Part shown: positions 1 to 51,299 of the stretch, piece by piece
How positions within the stretch are numbered: position 1 is the stretch's first letter
How the letters are laid out: every line of letters starts with the position of its first letter
Assembly (NCBI RefSeq): GCF_036365525.1
Contig: NC_090399.1
Location: 40,332,430-40,396,429, forward strand
Length of the DNA: 64,000 bases
Source of the DNA: Heterodontus francisci
Taxonomy: Eukaryota
Direction: 5' to 3'
Made by a program: the position numbers and the translations under genes
Notes under the pieces: model-generated
The model's database searches: none
What the model was told of the DNA's origin: nothing
The model's input: the letters and a program-made list of their open reading frames with translations, nothing else

Positions 1-430
1 CCCTCTTTCTTCCCCTTCCCCCTCTTTCCTTTTCCCCCTCCCCCTCTTTCCTTCCCCCCTCCCTCTCTTTCTTCCTCCCCTCCCCCTCCCTTCTTTTCTC
101 CCCTCCCCCACCCTCTTTCCTCCTCCACCTCCACTCCCTCTTTCCTCCTCCTCCCTCCCCTCTTTCCTTCCCCCTTTCCTTCCTCCCCCCTTTCCTTCCT
201 CTCCCTTTCCTTCCTCCCCCTCTCTCCTTCCCTCCTCCCCCTCTTTCCTTTCCCTCCTCCCCCTCTTTCCTTTCCCTCCTCCCCCTCTTCCCTTTCCCTC
301 CTCCCCCTCTTCCCTTTCCCTCTTCCCCCTCTTCCCTTTCCCTCCTCCCCCTCTTCGCCGCCGCTGAGCTCTCCTCGCCCCCCGCGCTGCTCTCCCCGCC
401 CCGCTCTCCCAGCCCCGCTCCACTCTCTCA
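1..430. repeat. C/T-rich low-complexity polypyrimidine tract
   Basis: Almost pure C/T over 1-355 with repeated CCTTTCCCTCCTCCCCCTCTT-like units, followed by a C/G-rich tail. Confidence 0.9.
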
Positions 431-870: not shown

Positions 871-918
871 ATGATTGACTGATAGTGCTGGTCCTTCTGT
901 GTGGAGGGGTCTCTGCAG
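871..918 (+). CDS. MHC class I exon 1 (signal peptide), 1-nt deletion in codon 3
   Basis: ATG ATT GA- CTG ATA GTG CTG GTC CTT CTG TGT GGA GGG GTC TCT GCA G|gtgagt reads MI(G)LIVLVLLCGGVSA if one G is restored. As written it is 48 nt rather than the 49 needed for phase 1, and stops at TGA 880-882. Confidence 0.8.
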
Positions 919-23007: not shown

Positions 23008-23250
23008 GCTCTCACTCTCTCCGGTATTTCGCTACCCGCATGACTCCGATTCCCGGTTTCCCGGAGTTTGTGGGTGTTGGTTCTGTTGACGATGTCCAGT
23101 TTGTTATGTACGACAGCGATCGGAAGCAGTTGATTCCCCGGGAGCAGTGGATGTTGGAAAGCGAGGGGCCTGAGTCCTGGATGCAGAGGCAGGAGCTGCA
23201 TTCTAAAATCTACCTTCCAATACTCACATCCCAGTCCAACCAGTCGGAAG
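23008..23250 (+). CDS. MHC class I exon 2 (alpha1 domain)
   Basis: ttttcag|GC TCT CAC...GAA G|gtgagt; 243 nt; (G)[57 protein letters not shown]...NQSE; NQS glycosylation sequon retained. Confidence 0.95.
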
Positions 23251-23577
23251 GTGAGTCTTCACCCTTCCGCCTCACTCTGCCTCTTTCTGTGGGATGAGGG
23301 ATCCGGGCGGGGATGGGGAAAAGTCGGGAATAGTGCGGGAGCCAGGATAACAAGAAACGTGGCTCCGTCTCCCAGAGCAGAGCAGAGCCGGCAGTCAAAG
23401 CGAGCGGGGATGGGGCAATGGCTCCGTCTCCCAGAGCAGAGCAGAGCAGAGCCGGCAGTCAAAGCGAGCGGCCTCACATCACTTCATGAACATTTATCCA
23501 AAGACTGGCAAACGCGATGTCCTTAAAATACAAAGGGGCCCTTTAAATAGCCGCAGCTCCCCAGGAGATGTGGGACA

Positions 23578-23762
23578 GGCAGTGTGGGCGTGGTCTCCCA
23601 GTGAGGCCAGTTTTCATTGGCTGAGGTAGTGGGCGGGGTCTCCCACTGAGACGAGTTTGATTGGCTGTGAGGTAGTGGGCGGGGTCTCCCGGTGGGACCG
23701 CTTTTGATTGGTTGTTAGGTAGTGGGCGTGGCCTCCCAGGCGGATCTGCTTTATTGGCTGTG
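23578..23762 (+). repeat. ~46-bp tandem repeat in intron 2, each unit with a GC box and ATTGG
   Basis: Four units of AGGTAGTGGGCG(G/T)GG(T/C)CTCCC...ATTGG(C/T)TG, ending next to the alpha2 acceptor. Confidence 0.85.
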
Positions 23763-23778
23763 TGCGCCTGATTGACAG

Positions 23779-24051
23779 GGATCCACACGTACCAGATGCA
23801 ACTCGGCTGTGAGCTGCGGGATGATGGGACCAGGACTGCGTTTGCTCAGACGAGATGGGACGGACGAGAATTCATGACATTTGACAAGGATCACGTAGTG
23901 TGGGAGACTCCGGTCCATTGGGGGAAGGGCATCCAAAGCAAGTGCAACCAGAACAGCGCTGACAAACTGCAATGCAAACACAGCCTGGAGGTTATGTGTT
24001 TTGAATGGCTGAAGAAATTTCTGCAGTACGGACAGCGAGAACTGAGTGTTG
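23779..24051 (+). CDS. MHC class I exon 3 (alpha2 domain)
   Basis: gacag|GG ATC CAC...GTT G|gtgagt; 273 nt; GIHTYQMQLGCELRDDG...WDGREFMTFDKDHVVWETPVHWG...CFEWLKKFLQYGQRELSV, with the conserved C101/C164 pair. Confidence 0.95.
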
Positions 24052-27000
24052 GTGAGTGGAGGTGGTGGCCGAGGGAGTGAGGGGAGGTGGTGGCCGAGGG
24101 AGTGAGGGGAGGTGGTGGCCGAGGGAGTGAGGGGAGGTGGTGGCCGAGGGAGTGGGGGGAGGCGGTGGGGGGGGCGAGGGAGTGGGGGGAGGCGGTGGGG
24201 GTGGGGCGAGGAAGTGGGAGGAGGCGGTGGGGGTGGGGCGAGGGAGTAGGGGGTGGGGGTGGGGCAAGGGAGTGGGGGGAGGGAGTGGGGGGAGGCGGTG
24301 GGGGGGGCGAGGGAGTGGGGGGAGGCGATGGGGGGGGCGTGGGGGTGGGGGCGAGGGAGTGTGGTGGGGGGGAGGGAGTGGGGGGAGGCGATGGGGGGGG
24401 TGTGGGGGTGGGGGCGAGGGAGTGTGGTGGGGGGGAGGGAGTGGGGGGAGGCGATGGGGGGGGCGTGGGGGTGGGGGCGAGGGAGTGTGGTGGGGGGGAG
24501 GGAGTGGGGGGAGGCGATGGGGGGGGTGTGGGGGTGGGGGCGAGGGAGTGTGGTGGGGGGGAGGGAGTGGGGGGAGGCGATGGGGGGGGTGTGGGGGTGG
24601 GGGCGAGGGAGTGTGGTGGGGGGGAGGGAGTGGGGGGAGGCGATGGGGGGGGTGTGGGGGTGGGGGCGAGGGAGTGTGGTGGGGGGGAGGGAGTGGGGGG
24701 AGGCGATGGGGGGGGTGTGGGGGTGGGGGCGAGGGAGTGTGGTGGGGGGGAGGGAGTGGGGGGAGGCGATGGGGGGGGCGTGGGGGTGGGGGCGAGGGAG
24801 TGTGGTGGGGGGGAGGCGGTGGGGGGGGGAGGGAGTGGGGGGAGGCAGTGGGGGGGGAGGGAGTGGGGGGAGGCGGTGGGGGGGGAGGGAGTGTGGGGAG
24901 GCGGTGGGGGGAGGAGGGAGAGTGGGGGGGGAGGGAGTGTGGGGAGGCGGTGGGGGGGGGAGGGAGTGGGGGGAGGCGGTGGGGGGGGAGGGAGTGGGGG
25001 GAGGCGGTGGGGGGGGAGGGAGTGTGGGGAGGCGGTGGGGGGGGGAGGGAGAGTGGGGGGGGGAGGGAGTGTGGGGAGGCGGTGGGGGGGGGGAGGGAGT
25101 GTGGGGAGGCGGTGGGGGGGGGGAGGGAGTGTGGGGAGGCGGTGGGGGGGGAGGGAGTGGGGGGAGGCGGTGGGGGGGAGGCGAGGGAGTGGGGGGGAGG
25201 CGGTGGGGGGGCGAGGGAGTGGGGGGGAGGCGGTGGGGGGGCGAGGGAGTGGGGGGGAGGCGGTGGGGGGGGCGAGGGAGTGGGGGGGAGGCGGTGGGGG
25301 GGGGCGAGGGAGTGGGGGGGAGGCGGTGGGGGGGGCGAGGGAGTGGGGGGAGGCTTTGGGGGGGGCGAGGGAGTGGGGGGAGGCGGTGGGGGGGGCGAGG
25401 GAGTGGGGGGAGGCGGTGGGGGGGGCGAGGGAGTGGGGGGAGGCGGGTGGGGGGGGTGCGAGTGAGTGGGGGGAGGCGGGTGGGGGGGGTGCGAGTGAGT
25501 GGGGGGAGGTGGTTGGGGGGGGTGCGAGGGAGTGGGGGGAGGTGGTTGGGGGGGGTGCGAGGGAGTGGGGGGAGGTGGTGGGGGGGGGTGCGAGGGAGTG
25601 GGGGGAGGTGGTGGGGGGGGTGCGAGGGAGTGGGGGGAGGTGGTGGGGGGGGTGCGAGGGAGTGGGGGGGAGGTGGTGGGGGGGGTCGAGGGAGTGGGGG
25701 GAGGTGGTGGGGGGGGGGTCGAGGGAGTGGGGGGAGGTGGTGGGGGGGGGGTCGAGGGAGCGGGGGGAGGTGGTGGGGGGGGGGTCGAGGGAGCGGGGGG
25801 AGGTGGTGGGGGGGGGGTCGAGGGAGCGGGGGGAGGTGGTGGGGGGGGGGTCGAGGGAGCGGGGGGAGGTGGTGGGGGGGGGTCGAGGGAGCGGGGGGAG
25901 GTGGTGGGGGGGGGTCGAGGGAGCGGGGGGAGGTGGTGGGGGGGGGTCGAGGGAGCGGGGGGAGGTGGTGGGGGGGGTCGAGGGAGCGGGGGGAGGTGGT
26001 GGGGGGGGGTCGAGGGAGCGGGGGGAGGTGGTGGGGGGGGGGTCGAGGGAGCGGGGGGAGGTGGTGGGGGGGGGGTCGAGGGAGCGGGGGGAGGTGGTGG
26101 GGGGGGGTCGAGGGAGTGGGGGGGGGTCGAGGGAGCGGGGGGAGGTGGTGGGGGGGGGTCGAGGGAGCGGGGGGAGGTGGGGGGGGTCGAGGGAGCGGGG
26201 GGAGGTGGTGGGGGGGGGTCGAGGGAGCGGGGGGAGGTGGGGGGGGTCGAGGGAGCGGGGGGAGGTGGTGGGGGGGGGTCGAGGGAGCGGGGGGAGGTGG
26301 GGGGGGTCGAGGGAGCGGGGGGGAGGTGGGGCGGGTCGAGGGAGCGGGGGGGAGGTGGGGGGGGGGTCGAGGGAGCGGGGGGAGGTGGGGGGGGGGCGAG
26401 GGAGCGAGGGGAAGTGGTGGGGGCGAGGGAGCGAGGGGAAGTGGTGGGAGCGAGGGGAAGTGGTGGGGGCGAGGGAGCGAGGGGAAGTGGTGGGGGCGAG
26501 GGAGCGAGGGGAAGTGGTGGGGGCGAGGGAGCGAGGTGAAGTGGTGGGGGCGAGGGTGCGAAGGGAGGTGGGACCGGGGGGAGGCGGTGGGGGCGAGGGA
26601 CCGGGGGGAGGCGGTGGGGGCGAGGGACCGGGGGGAGGCGGTGGGGGCGAGGGAGTGAGGGGAGGTGGTGGGAGTGAGGGGAGGTGGTGGGGGCGAGGGT
26701 GCGAGGGGAGGTGGGGTGGGCGAGGGAGCGAGGGGAGGTGGGCGAGGGAGCGAGGGGAAATGGTGGGGGCGAGGGAGCGAGGGGAAATGGTGGGGGCGAG
26801 GGAGCGAGGGGAAATGGTGGGGGCGAGGGAGTGAGGGGAAATGGTGGGGGCGAGGGAGTGAGGGGAAATGGTGGGGGCGAGGGAGTGAGGGGAAATGGTG
26901 GGGGCGAGGGAGTGAGGGGAAATGGTGGGGGCGAGGGAGTGAGGGGAAATGGTGGGGGCGAGGGAGTGAGGGGAAATGGTGGGGGCGAGGGAGTGAGGGG

Positions 27001-28258
27001 AAATGGTGGGGGCGAGGGAGTGAGGGGAAATGGTGGGGGCGAGGGAGTGAGGGGAAATGGTGGGGGCGAGGGAGTGAGGGGAAATGGTGGGGGCGAGGGA
27101 GTGAGGGGAGATGGTGGGGCGAGTGAGTGAGTGGAGGTGGCGGGGGCGAGGGTTTGTGGGGTTGAGGGTCGGTGAGGGAGTGAGGGGCGGTGGGGATGCG
27201 AGGGAGTGAGGGGCGGTGGGGATGCGAGGGAGTGAGGGTCGGTGGGGGGGGCGAGAGAGTGAGGGCGACGAGGGAGTGAGGGGCGGCGTGGGAGTGAGGG
27301 GTGGTGGGGGCGTGTGAGGGAGGGGAGGTGGTGGGGGCGATGGTCGGCGAGGGAGCGAGGGGTGGTGGTGGGGCGATGGTCGGCGAGGGAGCGAGGGGAG
27401 GTGGTGGGGGGGGCGAGGGGAGGTGGGGCGAGGGGAGGAGAGGGGGTGAGGGGAGGTGGGGGGCACGAGGGAAGGATGTGGGGGGGGAGGGAGCGAGGGA
27501 AGGAAGTGGGGGGGGAGGGAGCGAGGGGAGGATGTGGGGGGGAGCGAGGGGAGGTGGTGGGGGTGCGCGAGGGTACGAGGGGATGTGGATGAGGAGGGCG
27601 AGGGGTGGTGGTGGGGGGGCGAGGGAGCGAGGGGTGGTGGGGGGGCGAGGGAGCGAGGGGGGGTGGTGGGGGGGCGAGGGAGCGAGGGGAGGTGGTGGGG
27701 GGGCGAGGGTGCGAGGGGATGAGGGGCTGAGCGTCGGCGAGGGAGTGAGGGGAGGTGGTGGGGGGGCGAGGGAGTGAGGGGAGGCGAGGGGGCGAGGGGA
27801 GGTGGTGGGGGGGCGCGAGGGTACGAGGGGAGGTGATGAGGGGGGCGAGGGAGTGAGGGGAGGTGGTGGGGGGGCGAGGGAGTGAGGGGAGGCGAGGGGA
27901 GGGGGTGGAGGGGTGAGGGAGCGAGGGGAGGTGGTTGGGCGAGGGTCAGCGAGGGAGCGAGGGGTGGTGGTGGGGCGAGGGTCAGCGAGGGAGCGAGGGG
28001 AGGTGGGGGCGCGAGTGTCGGCGAGGGGAGGTGGGGCGCGAGGGTCGACGAGGTAGTGAGGGGAGTCGGGGGGCGAGGGAGTGAGGGGAGGCGGGGGCCG
28101 AGCGTCGGCGAGGGAATGTGGGGCATTGGGGGCTGGGGGTCGGCGAGGGAGTGAGGGGGAGGTGGGTGGCGAGGGAGTGAGGGGAGGTGGGGGGGGGCGA
28201 GGGTCGGCGAGGGAGTGAGGGAAGGTGGGGGGCGAGGGTCGGTGAATGGGGAGCCGGG
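24052..28258 (+). repeat. 4.2-kb extremely G-rich compound minisatellite filling intron 3
   Basis: Successive variant blocks built on a GAGGGAG(T/C)G core, including a 63-bp unit (~8 copies, ~24310-24810) and a 27-bp unit GGGGGCGAGGGAGTGAGGGGAAATGGT (~13 copies, ~26750-27115). Confidence 0.95.
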
Positions 28259-28310: not shown

Positions 28311-28574
28311 TGACTCCCGTCGTGTCCTTTACCCGTCCGGGTGGTTCTAACCGGCTGTCCTGTGTCGTCACTGGGTTTTACCCTCAGGCCATCGAGGTGA
28401 CTCTGTGGAGAGATGGAGTGATGATCGATGAGACCCTGTCCTCTGGGATTTTACCCAATCACGACAGAACCTACCAGATCCGGAAATGGATAGAGTTTGA
28501 TCCGGAAGACCAGGCTGAGTATTCCTGTCGGGTGGAGCACAGCGGGCTGACGGAGACGATGGTGATGATTTACG
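28311..28574 (+). CDS. MHC class I exon 4 (alpha3, Ig C1 domain)
   Basis: ctctctcag|TG ACT CCC...TAC G|gtaaga; 264 nt; RLSCVVTGFYPQAIEVTLWRDG...ILPNHDRTYQIRKW...YSCRVEHSGL. Confidence 0.95.
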
Positions 28575-29625: not shown

Positions 29626-32600
29626 GATATATTGGGGATCTTCCTGGTCCTTTTGGCTCTAAGTCTGCCAAATGATGCTTCACCTCCCGAAGGACGTGGA
29701 TGAGCTTTCCGGACGTCGATGGTGGGCACTGAGGAAATGGCTTATTACCTGCACCAGCTTCCGCCCCCCCTCCCCCCCTTTTTACCCCCCTTCCACCCCC
29801 CTTCCACTTCCCTGCTCCACCCTCTCAGCTCACCCCCTCACAACCCCGTCCCAGCCCGCCCCCCCCTCGCACCATCTTCACCCCCTTCCCCCCGCAACCC
29901 CCCCCCCCCCCCCACCCACCGGCACCATCCTACACCTGTGTAGGGGCCCCAACAACCCCACTGCCTTGTGGGCGTCTCGGGAGAGACCAAGGCTAAGGGA
30001 GTAAACCCTAACAGAAAATCCGGAGCGGAACTCCATAGGCAGTCATGTGTCACCTTTGGCATGTTTCCGGCAGTTCCTGCAGCCATACTGGTGCCAAACG
30101 TCATGCTCTGCACTCCTTTGGACCCCACCAGAAAGGCCGAGAGGGGGGTTTTGACGACTGGGCAACTCTCAACCTCCATAAATTTGCCCAGGCATGCGCC
30201 ATGGAGAGGTCACTCCATAGTTGCCTCACAGCGACTAAAACAACACGGAAGGCAGCAGTTACGGGTTATAAGTCCAGATAAATTGGCGTAGAAACTGGGC
30301 GCCACGGGTTGCCTTTGTCGGTGGGAGAAGTCATTGCACCTCACTGGACAGCTACCGTCCGCCTCAAACCGGGCAGCCCCCGGTCAATAAGGTTCTGTCC
30401 CGCCACAGTCTGCCTGCTTCAATGGGTGCTTGGAGCTCAGGGTCATTGCCCGAAAGGTGGACTGATGCACCGCACCAAACAACATGAAAAAAGGAAAGAA
30501 CGTACCAGCCTTCGCTTTGCAAGCTGGAACGTCAGAACTATGTGTCCTGGCCTGTCGGAAGACCTTACACAAATCAACGATTCTCGGAAGACCGCCATCA
30601 TTAACAACGAGCTCAGTAGATTCAATGTGGACATTGCAGCACTTCAGGAGACTCGCTTCCCCGCGAGTGGCTCTCTAGCAGAGCAAGACTACACCTTCTT
30701 CTGGCAGGGCAGGGATCCTGAAGAACCAAGACAGCATGGAGTGGGCTTCGCCATCAGAAACTCCTTGCTCAGCATGATAGAGCCTCCCTCAAATGGCTCG
30801 GAACGCATACTGTCCATCCGACTGCTCACCACCTCTGGTCCAGTACACCTACTCAGCATCTATGCTCCAACACTCTGCTCCCCACCTGAAGCTTAAGACC
30901 AGTTCTATGAACAACTCCATAACATCATTAGCAGCATCCCCAACACCGAACACCTATTCCTGCTGGGGGACTTTAATACCAGGGTTGGGGCCGACCATGA
31001 CTCATGGCCCTCCTGCCTTGGGCGCTATGGCGTTGGAAGGATGAATGAGAACGGGCAGAGACTGCTTGAGTTGTGTACCTATCATAACCTCTGCATCACC
31101 AACTCGTTCTTTCACACTAAACCCTGTCACCAGGTTTCATGGAGGCACCCAAGATCACGTCATTGGCACCAGCTAGACCTCATTGTCACAAGGCGAGCCG
31201 CCTTAAACAGTGTTCAAATCACACGCAGCTTCCACAGTGCGGACTGCGACACCGACCACTCCCTGGTGTGCAGCAAGGTTAGACTCAGACCAAAGAAGTT
31301 GCATCATTCCAAGCAGAAGGGCCACCCGCGCATCAACACGAGCAGAATTTCTCACCCACAGCTGTTACAAAAATTTCTAAATTCACTTGTAACAGCCCTT
31401 CCAAACACTCCCACAGGGGATGCTGAGACCAAGTGGGCCCACATCAGAGACGCCATCTATGAGTCAGCTTTGACCACCTACGGCAAAAGTGCGAAGAGAA
31501 ATGCAGACTGGTTTCAATCTCATAATGAAGAGCTGGAACCTGTCATAGCCGCTAAGCGCATTGCACTGTTGAACTACAAGAAAGCCCCCAGCGATTTAAC
31601 ATCCGCAGCACTTAAAGCAGCCAGAAGTACTGCACAAAGAACAGCTAGGCGTTGCGCAAACGACTACTGGCAACACCTATGCAGTCATATTCAGCTGGCC
31701 TCAGACACCGGAAACATCAGAAGAATGTATGATGGCATGAAGAGAGCTCTTGGGCCAACCATCAAGAAGATAGCCCCCCTCAAATCTAAATCGGGGGACA
31801 TAATCACTGACCAACGCAAACAGATGGACCGCTGGGTTGAGCACTACCTAGAACTGTACTCCAGGGAGAATGCTGTCACTGAGACTGCCCTCAATGCAGC
31901 CCAGCCTCTACCAGTCATGGATGAGCTGGACATACAGCCAACCAAATCGGAACTCAGTGATGCCATTGATTCCCTAGCCAGCGGAAAAGCCCCTGGGAAG
32001 GACAGCATTACCCCTTTAAATAATCAAGAGTGCTAAGCCTGCTATACTCTCAGCACTACATGAACTGCTATGCCTGTGCTGGGACGAGGGAGCAGTACCC
32101 CAGGACATGCGCGATGCCAACATCATCAGCCTCTATAAAAACAAAGGTGACCGCGGTGACTGCAACAACTACCGTGGAATCTCCCTGCTCAGCATAGTGG
32201 GGAAAGTCTTTGCTCGAGTCGCTCTGAACAGGCTCCAGAAGCTGGCCGAGCGCGTCTACCCTGAGGCACAGTGTGGCTTTCGTGCAGAGAGATCGACCAT
32301 TGACATGCTGTTCTCCCTTCATCAGATACAGGAGAAATGCCGTGAACAACAGATGCCCCTCTACATTGCTTTCATTGATCTCACCAAAGCCTTTGACCTC
32401 ATCAGCAGACGTGGTCTCTTCAGACTACTAGAAAAGATCGGATGTCCACCAAAGCTACTAAGTATCATCACCTCATTCCATGACAATATGAAAGGCACAA
32501 TTCAACATGGTGGCTCCTCATCAGAGCCCTTTCCTATCCTGAGTGGTGTGAAACAGGGCTGTGTTCTCGCACCCACACTTTTTGGGATTTTCTTCTCCCT

Positions 32601-33740: not shown

Positions 33741-34974
33741 CACCATCAACTGATATGATATCAGCTCTTCTCAGTTCCAATCTGAACCACTGATTTGAAG
33801 TATACCCTTACGAGTGAATTTGAGGGAAGTCACACCTAAGCAGTCTTCACTGCTGTTCAGCAGAAGACTTTTATTATCACACCAAACTTAAAAGAAATCC
33901 CCATTAACCAAACAATATTTTGTAAGTAGCTGATATCCCAAATTACAGATAAAGGTATTTTCTTCACTTATTAAAATATTTGAAAACCTCACACCACACT
34001 TGTACATTACGCAGCCCTCCTTGACAGTGAAATGTGTGCAGCTAAAACTCCTGCCTGTTGCAATGGATTGGATCTCCCAGACCTTTCTCAAAGTCAATGT
34101 CCTCTTTGCTCACTTCTTCCGAGCACTTTCCACCTGGACATCTGTGAATAAGGCGATTTCTGGTGATCATATTGGTCTTTTACTTCTCTGCAAACCTCAG
34201 CTTTCAAAATGGCTTCAATTCTTCGCAGCCTTTCACTGTATCAGTCTTCTGAGAGCAGATGTTCTCTCTGTTTCTCCTTCTGAGGCTGTCACCGTTGGTC
34301 GTCTTCCTTACTGCCTGCCTTCAGAAGATCTGTTGAATTTATCTGGAATCAATAGTCAATAGCCAGTCGTCTCTTAGAATATGCAAAGTCCACAAGTCTG
34401 GCTGCAGCAGAGCCACCCAGGCTTTCCATTGTTTACATTCAGAGTCACTGGCTTCTTGTTTATGATCTGAAAGTCTGGGAGGGTGAAACCCATTGTTCTT
34501 CAGGTGTTATACCCCCTGCAATCTTTGTTTTTCAGAAAGGTCTTTGATCTGATTTTTTTGTTGTCCTGGTAACCAAGATCCCTGTCTTTAAGCAGTGTTG
34601 ATGTGAGGTCACCTGACTTCTGACTCCATCTTAAAATTTGGAAAATTCCAATTTTTAAAAAACTTAATCATGTTACAAAGTCTAGTGTTCACAATATCTC
34701 TCCCAAAAATAGAAAACTAATTGCTGTAGTAATGATTTCTCAACATTATCAGCATATAGCATTGTAAATATTTCTATTAATACTTTATACAGGTAACAAT
34801 ATTTTATATCTGAGTTACTTTCCTCCATTATACCTTTTCCTTAAATTCTGACTGGAGTATCACCAGTTACATTGCTCTTTCCTGTAACATGTACAATGTT
34901 TAGGGTAAATTGTTGCAGGATTAAACTCCACTGAAATAATCTGGTATTCTTGGTTTTAAATTTCTCGAGGATTA

Positions 34975-51099: not shown

Positions 51100-51299
51100 N
51101 NNNNNNNNNNNNNNNNNNNNNNNNNNNNNNNNNNNNNNNNNNNNNNNNNNNNNNNNNNNNNNNNNNNNNNNNNNNNNNNNNNNNNNNNNNNNNNNNNNNN
51201 NNNNNNNNNNNNNNNNNNNNNNNNNNNNNNNNNNNNNNNNNNNNNNNNNNNNNNNNNNNNNNNNNNNNNNNNNNNNNNNNNNNNNNNNNNNNNNNNNNN
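51100..51299. other. Assembly gap (200 N)
   Basis: Run of N. The flanks belong to different elements (Gypsy gag versus CR1 EN). Confidence 1.

What the first reader, a model, noticed from the sequence alone, without database searches (positions are those of the whole stretch)
23008..24051. Remodelled, non-classical binding groove: short alpha1 helix, lost anchors, two new cysteines
Seen: the alpha1 exon is 81 codons versus the usual ~88-90, with the in-frame shortfall in the helix after GPESW. By manual alignment to HLA numbering, Y7, K146 and W167 are kept, while Y59>S, R/Y84>Q, T143>I, W147>C, Y159>S and Y171>F; there is another Cys near position 156. N86 glycan, C101-C164 and the alpha3 disulfide are intact. 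Established: those anchor residues fix peptide termini in classical class I. Inference: a divergent lineage with a non-peptide or absent ligand. The extra Cys could form a second alpha2 disulfide or an interchain bond. Decay after pseudogenisation is the alternative, but the open frames argue that constraint was recent.
Basis: partly seen in the sequence, partly recalled or inferred. Interest (0 to 1): 0.7.

Follow-up and report, generated by a model that had tools for sequence, protein, structure and literature searches.

The report
Shark UBA gene with shortened groove
This horn shark immune-display gene belongs to an already described non-classical MHC class I family (UBA); it and one sister copy lack six residues of the groove wall and most peptide-gripping residues, so they likely hold a small non-peptide or loosely held cargo, and this copy's broken first exon and missing membrane anchor are likely assembly errors.

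Summary
Observation confirmed; lineage already known. The gene is a horn shark MHC class Ib gene of the UBA family (tree 99/95 with O19479/O19480; cluster between C4-like and RXR genes). Y59 loss (42/42) and T143I (35/42) are UBA-wide. What is new sits in a young trio of copies (window, 42.33 Mb, 42.73 Mb): R84Q, W156C, Y159S/N, E163M, Y171F, and in two of them an 18-nt alpha1 deletion between 7-nt repeats (2 of 77 sequences) that removes the family's K63. The deleted form is in 4 of 4 RNA-like runs (one sample). The two cysteines do not co-occur elsewhere, so a second disulfide is unlikely. Alpha2 of the trio differs about 7 times faster than its introns, which neutral decay does not give; dN>dS alone is not significant (P=0.12). 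The scan found UBA grooves before in other sharks (8 notes). Ligand untested.

The parts
871..918 (+). Leader exon, 48 nt as assembled; one G missing after 876 gives M-I-D-stop
   Evidence: 14 of 15 leader exons are 49 nt; 4 single-base indels in 364 bp here vs 7 in 32.3 kb of introns
23008..23250 (+). Alpha1 exon, 81 codons (Y27S, Y59S, R84Q, N86 glycan site kept)
23180..23187 (+). Junction of the 18-nt in-frame deletion (about residues 61-66, including UBA K63); one copy of a 7-nt direct repeat remains
   Evidence: alignment with the 42.33 and 42.73 Mb copies
23779..24051 (+). Alpha2 exon (G117R, D122E, T143I, K146, W147C, W156C, Y159S, E163M, W167, Y171F; C101-C164 kept)
23943..23945 (+). 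Codon for C147 (TGC; TGG in the 42.33 Mb copy, TTG in the 42.73 Mb copy), private to this copy
   Evidence: read in run X5 piece 23916-23997 with no difference
23973..23975 (+). Codon for C156, shared with three horn shark paralogues
24052..28221 (+). G-rich minisatellite filling intron 3
28311..28574 (+). Alpha3 exon, Ig C1 disulfide intact, 93-98% identical to the other cluster members
51100..51299 (.). Assembly gap (N); collinearity with the 42.73 Mb copy ends here, about 1.9 kb before where its transmembrane exon lies

Best explanation
This is a member of the shark UBA non-classical class I family, one of a young trio of horn shark copies whose groove has lost six alpha1-helix residues (in two copies) and most end-anchoring and bulky groove residues, so it likely forms a shorter but roomier cavity that would hold a small non-peptide or end-unanchored cargo for innate-type receptors. 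Shown: family, trio, deletion, residue changes, transcription of the deleted form. Inferred order: the trio's stem lost E163 (the likely cross-groove partner of UBA K63), Y159, W156, R84 and Y171; substitutions created a 7-nt direct repeat; slippage between the repeats then removed residues ~61-66 with the now unpaired K63 (about 9 A of helix at the peptide N-terminal end). Small residues at 9 (A), 24 (G), 114 (A/V), 156 (C) and 159 (S/N) would deepen the centre. Alpha2 variants are shuffled among the copies and kept divergent while introns stay near-identical, as diversifying selection plus conversion would give. C147 is a private one-base Trp change, likely unpaired. The window copy is likely a low-expressed, intact-in-life member whose frameshift and missing transmembrane exon are assembly faults.
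For: Tree: nested in a 41-row clade with O19479 and O19480, 99/95; horn shark subclade 99/92. Cluster 32.07-42.92 Mb lies between a C4-like exon at 31.86 Mb and an RXR exon at 44.48 Mb, as published for UBA (PMC10751288 section 9). K63 with E/D163 in 34 of 42 UBA rows; trio has M163. Deletion junction bridged in 4 of 4 RNA-like runs by the 42.33 Mb type; full-length type seen as a loose end in X5; window-specific pieces in X5 (alpha2) and X6 (alpha1) at depth 640 and 170-194 against intron pieces 111 and 81. Alpha2: 23 differences in 273 nt among the trio vs 3.4 expected from 32.3 kb of introns; 42.33 vs 42.73 copies 13 vs 0.7 expected and above all 149 intron bins (max 7); 7 of 19 variable residues at recalled groove positions (P=0.045). 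AlphaFold2 with 101 sequences keeps the class I fold, alpha1 helix continuous over 22 residues, alpha2 pLDDT 90-97; best Foldseek match shark 6LUP. Leader lies in a patch with 4 one-base indels in 364 bp (expected 0.08); such indels also pile up towards the contig end at the gap (8 in the last 5 kb).
Against: No ligand or receptor data; cavity shape is reasoned from recalled HLA positions, no coordinates were measurable. Synonymous share in alpha2 (2 of 23) is not significantly below neutral (P=0.12); alpha1 dN/dS in the trio is 0.4-1.2 on 4-5 changes; 1 of 149 intron bins (a simple repeat) also reaches 23 trio differences; variant patterns are mosaic, so patchy gene conversion without selection can inflate the exon-intron contrast, and alpha1 and alpha3 also exceed the intron rate between the two sisters (P=0.0004, 0.004). 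The window copy alone carries Y27S (3 of 42 UBA rows), G117R (1 of 42) and D122E (1 of 42) at otherwise fixed underside positions, which looks like decay. No contig showing the window's leader, with or without the G, was listed. The model lacks the first beta strand and dips to pLDDT 75-78 next to the deletion. RNA status of the runs is the tool's guess; one sample, one study.
Confidence: 0.5

Rival explanations
1. The window copy is a young pseudogene or null copy: the leader frameshift is real, and W147C, Y27S, G117R and D122E are decay on top of a groove design inherited from its working sister. This concerns this copy only; the deletion would still be carried by the expressed 42.33 Mb copy.
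For: Frameshift in 1 of 15 leaders; the only one of 9 cluster loci without a transmembrane match; three private changes at positions fixed in 38-40 of 42 UBA rows; window-specific RNA pieces in only 2 of 4 runs and far below the sister type (640 vs 4197 in X5); a broken family copy exists at 32.07 Mb.
Against: Indel cluster around the leader and gap at the expected transmembrane position point to assembly faults; no stops or frameshifts in alpha1-3; splice sites intact.
Confidence: 0.3
2. The deleted forms are ligand-free: the groove collapses and the molecule is itself a stress or self ligand, as mouse T10/T22 (3- and 12-residue deletions, folds with beta2m without peptide, seen by a gamma-delta T cell).
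For: Only 3 of 9 end anchors kept here, 4 in the sister; helix shortened by 6 residues; precedent in PMC2196254 (passages).
Against: Variation falls on floor positions 97, 99, 114, 116 and wall positions 147, 152, 159, which matter mainly if something lies in the groove; bulky residues were removed rather than added.
Confidence: 0.2
3. One reading: C147 and C156 form a second alpha2 bond or an interchain bond that stabilises an empty groove.
For: Both cysteines are in this copy and C147 is read in RNA-like run X5.
Against: No co-occurrence: C156 alone in 4 rows (two of them its closest sisters), C147 alone in 4 rows (Mustelus, Pristis; two identical), both only here; from recalled class I geometry they lie across the alpha2 kink, over 10 A apart, facing the groove.
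Confidence: 0.07
4. It is a new, separate class I lineage.
For: Long stem (0.23 changes per column) to the trio; no relative outside horn shark above 61% over alpha1-2.
Against: Nested inside the horn shark UBA subclade with 100/94 and 99/92 support; alpha3 93-98% identical to other UBA copies; UBA synteny.
Confidence: 0.03

Closest known systems
Elasmobranch MHC class Ib UBA family (O19480_HETFR, O19479_GINCI; PMC12562908, PMC10751288)
   Same: Same clade, same C4-RXR-flanked multicopy cluster, Y59 loss, T143I, alpha3 near-identical; O19480's tail matches the copies at 42.45/42.84 Mb, about 120 kb from the sister copies.
   Different: Six-residue alpha1 deletion removing K63; E163M, W156C, Y159S, R84Q, Y171F, A9/R11; private W147C; fast alpha2 divergence among near-identical copies.
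Nurse shark classical UAA*01 (PDB 6LUP)
   Same: Best sequence and fold match in the PDB; same domain layout and disulfides.
   Different: UAA keeps Y7/Y59/E63/R84/T143/K146/W147/Y159/W167/Y171; this copy keeps 3 of the 9 end anchors.
Mouse H2-T10/T22 (works-like comparison only)
   Same: Class Ib with in-frame deletions in the groove domains, arisen by recent duplication (PMC2196254 passages).
   Different: Unrelated origin; their larger deletion is in alpha2 at the F-pocket end, here it is the alpha1 helix at the A-pocket end; ligand-free folding is shown there, untested here.
Shark CD1-like UFA/UGA and mammalian MR1
   Same: Non-peptide cargo is the inferred parallel; NCBI's automatic name for this gene is 'class I-related'.
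   Different: UFA/UGA are single or low copy in the other class Ib cluster (PMC12562908, PMC10751288 passages); no reference sequences were at hand, and this gene groups with UBA. MR1 hits reflect general similarity and rank below 6LUP.

Membership tests
Elasmobranch UBA class Ib | Groups with the founding nurse and horn shark sequences, apart from classical UAA | tested here: met
   41-row clade 99/95 with O19479 and O19480; Triakis and 6LUP UAA outside. That these two accessions are the Bartl 1997 clones is recalled; PMC12562908 ties UBA to Bartl 1997.
Elasmobranch UBA class Ib | Multicopy cluster flanked by c4 and rxrb | tested here: met
   9 loci at 32.07-42.92 Mb; C4-like exon 31.86 Mb, RXR exon 44.48 Mb (subtype not resolved); criterion.
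Elasmobranch UBA class Ib | Loss of peptide-end anchors typical of the clade (Y59, T143) | tested here: met
   Y59 absent in 42 of 42, I143 in 35 of 42; window S59, I143. Feature derived here from the alignment, not from a paper.
Elasmobranch UBA class Ib | K63 with acidic 163 and W156 (clade hallmarks found in the alignment) | tested here: not met
   63 deleted, M163, C156; derived losses inside the clade, not part of the published definition I could read.
Elasmobranch UBA class Ib | Intact membrane-bound heavy chain (leader to tail) | tested here: inconclusive
   Leader frameshift and missing transmembrane exon, both at low-quality or gapped assembly.
Classical class Ia (UAA) | Conserved end anchors Y7, Y59, R84, T143, K146, W147, Y159, W167, Y171 | tested here: not met
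   3 of 9 kept; anchors as described in PMC8236899 passages.
Shark UEA / UDA / UFA / UGA | Clade membership and place in the brd2/beta2m-linked class Ib cluster | not tested
   No named references in the tree; defining papers not held.
T10/T22-like ligand-free class Ib | Folds with beta2m without ligand and is seen by gamma-delta T cells | not testable with these tools
   Needs refolding and binding assays.

The most novel reading that the evidence does not exclude
A young horn shark UBA subfamily is in an arms race like a classical locus: the 42.33 and 42.73 Mb copies are two alleles (both haplotypes assembled in tandem) or fresh duplicates with 99.75% identical introns but 12-13 amino-acid-changing differences in alpha2 and a segregating six-residue alpha1-helix deletion, all transcribed. 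That would be a highly variable non-peptide-presenting class I molecule with a natural short-groove form.
Probability: 0.3. Interest if true: 0.62.

Novelty: new variant of a known kind. Interest (0 to 1): 0.38.

Why it matters
UBA function is unknown (PMC10751288). The trio is a natural stepwise series: ordinary UBA (K63-E163), then M163 with a full helix (42.73 Mb), then the helix deleted (42.33 Mb and window). Comparing these three proteins would test directly what the UBA groove holds and how much alpha1 helix a class I molecule can lose. If the alpha2 variation proves allelic, it blurs the rule that non-classical genes are oligomorphic. The lineage itself is in print, so this is a specialist-level addition; it also flags that the public gene model for this locus (internal start, intronic last exon) is wrong.

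Tried and rejected
Single-sequence AlphaFold2 of the full-length sister P0004 failed (pLDDT 45.6). The alignment-based model used P0003, which lacks the first strand and has a false tail; no coordinates were available, so Cys distances were not measured. No complex with beta2m was folded: a pass would follow from likeness to solved structures. Reads on the leader were inconclusive: listed contigs carry the G but belong to or cannot be told from paralogues, DNA cover has holes; in X6 all 7 laid contigs lack the window's leader type, which is absence in contigs and no evidence. No listed holder is on record as RNA. IQ-TREE codon runs printed no omega; counting methods were used instead. Three of 7 sampled stretches (42.60-42.69 Mb) found no partner in the sampled second copy, so the duplication's far end and allele-versus-duplicate status are open. 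Papers not held: PMC8454915, PMC7002201 (also by DOI), PMC7039333, PMC18298. Supplement of PMC10751288 searched for UBA, UEA, Heterodontus, horn shark: 2 of 12 'uba' places shown, both ubiquitin genes; no horn shark. CpG hypermutation as cause of alpha2 divergence rejected by eye: 16 of 23 changes are transversions (one search list). New lineage and structural C147-C156 bond rejected as above.

Full report
Observation. The alpha1 exon (23008-23250) has 81 codons, alpha2 is 23779-24051 and alpha3 28311-28574; splice sites and frames are sound. A public protein identical over alpha2 is labelled Heterodontus francisci (P0003, XP_067865917.1). The shark norm is 87 codons, so six are missing.

Family. 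I built a tree from 76 of the 121 proteins P0003-P0123 (one search listed the best 120 of 177 hits; I left out fused or fragmentary records, one isoform, and most ray and lizard or newt near-duplicates). The gene sits in a 41-row shark and ray clade (99/95) with O19479_GINCI and O19480_HETFR, inside a horn shark subclade (99/92), apart from Triakis and 6LUP classical UAA. PMC12562908 (passages) names UBA as an expanded class Ib family derived from UAA, citing Bartl 1997; that the two accessions are those clones is recalled. PMC10751288 (passages and section 9) places UBA in its own cluster flanked by c4 and rxrb. Here 9 related loci lie at 32.07-42.92 Mb of the same contig, between a C4-like exon at 31.86 Mb and an RXR exon at 44.48 Mb. 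No named UEA, UDA, UFA or UGA sequence was in the tree.

What is family-wide and what is new. The window copy (W) has two close sisters, A at 42.33 Mb and B at 42.73 Mb (P0004). All three share A9, R11, S59, Q84, C156, S or N159, M163 and F171. W and A lack 18 nt that B has; the lost piece lies between two copies of a 7-nt repeat, which points to slippage, and it contains K63. Only these 2 of 77 aligned rows have a short helix; a further search with alpha1-2 found nothing closer than 61% outside horn shark among 25 hits. Position 147 is C, W and L in W, A and B. C147 occurs in 5 of 42 UBA rows and C156 in 4 of 42 plus one outside; only W has both. A structural C147-C156 bond therefore has no evolutionary support.

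Expression. Four runs that the tool guesses to be RNA (one sample, one study; exon depth far above intron depth, alpha1-alpha2 joint GT..AG in 4 of 4) contain contigs that bridge the deletion junction in A's form in 4 of 4; B's extra bases show as a loose end in X5; pieces identical to W at W-only sites occur in X5 (23916-23997, includes C147) and X6 (23054-23113, 23158-23241), 2 of 4 runs. Contig depth cannot rank genes; 178 pieces were not shown.

Selection. Over 32.3 kb of aligned introns the trio differs at 1.25% of sites and A from B at 0.25%. Alpha2 has 23 variable sites in 273 nt (3.4 expected) and 13 between A and B (0.7 expected), 12.5 of them amino-acid-changing. Among 149 intron bins of equal size the A-B maximum is 7, and one simple-repeat bin reaches 23 for the trio. 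Neutral decay would give the intron rate, so it does not explain this. Against: 2 synonymous of 23 is not significantly below neutral (P=0.12); groove enrichment is marginal (7 of 19, P=0.045, recalled position set); the variants form a mosaic, many matching older paralogues, so conversion contributes; alpha1 and alpha3 also exceed the A-B intron rate. A and B lie in a duplication of at least 270 kb at 99-99.9% identity that starts at assembly gaps; the other UBA pair inside it (42.45, 42.84 Mb) is identical over alpha1-2. A and B may be alleles; this was not resolved.

Is this copy alive? The leader exon at 871-918 lacks one G and stops at codon 4; the other 14 of 15 leaders read are 49 nt. 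But it lies among 4 one-base indels in 364 bp, against 7 in 32.3 kb elsewhere (expected 0.08), next to a long purine-pyrimidine repeat, and similar indels pile up near the contig end: the pattern of consensus errors. Reads did not settle it. No transmembrane exon matches near the window (8 matches elsewhere), but the window is collinear with B up to the N gap at 51100, about 1.9 kb short of where B's exon lies. For decay: W alone has Y27S, G117R and D122E at near-fixed positions, of which only Y27S was seen in a listed RNA piece. I put 30% on W being a null copy. The public model P0003 starts at an internal Met and ends in an intronic frame at 34027-34362, which is likely an artefact.

Structure and mechanism. 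AlphaFold2 on a 101-row alignment gives the class I fold with a continuous 22-residue alpha1 helix, pLDDT 75-78 beside the deletion and 90-97 over most of alpha2; the model lacks the first strand. Foldseek ranks shark 6LUP first. PMC8236899 (passages) describes Y7, Y59, 63, Y159, Y171 as the peptide N-end network and 84, T143, K146, W147 at the C-end. W keeps Y7, K146 and W167 only. Six residues are about 9 A and not a whole number of turns (established helix geometry), so the N-end pocket would be shortened and reshaped, while A9, G24, A114, C156 and S159 replace larger residues in the centre. The most likely reading (50%) is a shorter, roomier cavity for a small non-peptide or end-unanchored cargo; a ligand-free T10/T22-like form (PMC2196254, passages) gets 20%. 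No step of ligand or receptor binding is shown.

Novelty. The lineage is known, and this scan noted UBA grooves in other sharks (nothing near this place). I found no paper describing an alpha1-helix deletion or fast alpha2 variation in UBA in ten searches, but the main lineage papers (Bartl 1997, Almeida 2020 and 2021, Ohta 2000 and 2002) and their supplements could not be read, so this is weak. Also seen: PMC6523485 (passages, nothing on shark UBA), PMC9138301 (passages, irrelevant), PMC6769792 (abstract and section 1.2). Verdict: new variant of a known kind, interest 0.38.

Noticed in passing
G000:C29:42.30-42.57 Mb vs 42.70-42.96 Mb: Tandem duplication of at least 270 kb at 99-99.9% identity beginning at assembly gaps; may be both haplotypes placed in tandem.
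   Followed up: partly
G000:C29:42299487-42328475: Gap-bounded piece holding alpha3 and the transmembrane exon of the 42.33 Mb copy is in the opposite orientation to its leader-alpha2, likely a scaffolding flip at the G-rich repeat.
   Followed up: partly
window 34027-34362: Last exon of the public model P0003 is an intronic frame inside a repeat (81% like DNA after the 42.73 Mb copy's transmembrane exon); likely a false exon.
   Followed up: partly
window 30282-32036 and beyond: Endonuclease- and reverse-transcriptase-like frames of a LINE in intron 4, split by a stop near 30894; judged by eye only.
   Followed up: no
L006, G000:C29:32.07 Mb: Broken UBA copy with frameshifts in alpha1 and near the end of alpha2, close to the 32.21 Mb gene.
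   Followed up: partly
G000:C29:46.03-46.56 Mb: A third C4-like exon beside several long-branch class I genes (P0043, P0092) that the tree places with weak support beside horn shark UBA; they also lack K63 and E163.
   Followed up: partly
G000:C29:57.4-62.8 Mb, C815, C1290, C1655: About ten near-identical class I copies (P0073 type) whose alpha2 keeps T143, K146, W147, Y159, W167 and Y171.
   Followed up: no
G000:C49:13.13-13.21 Mb: Six weak matches to the alpha3 exon (32-41%) clustered on another contig; an Ig C1-domain gene cluster of unknown kind.
   Followed up: no
L099 and window 1-355: A 45-bp tandem array of at least 7.5 kb and a purine-pyrimidine mirror tract lie just upstream of the leader in all three sister copies.
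   Followed up: no
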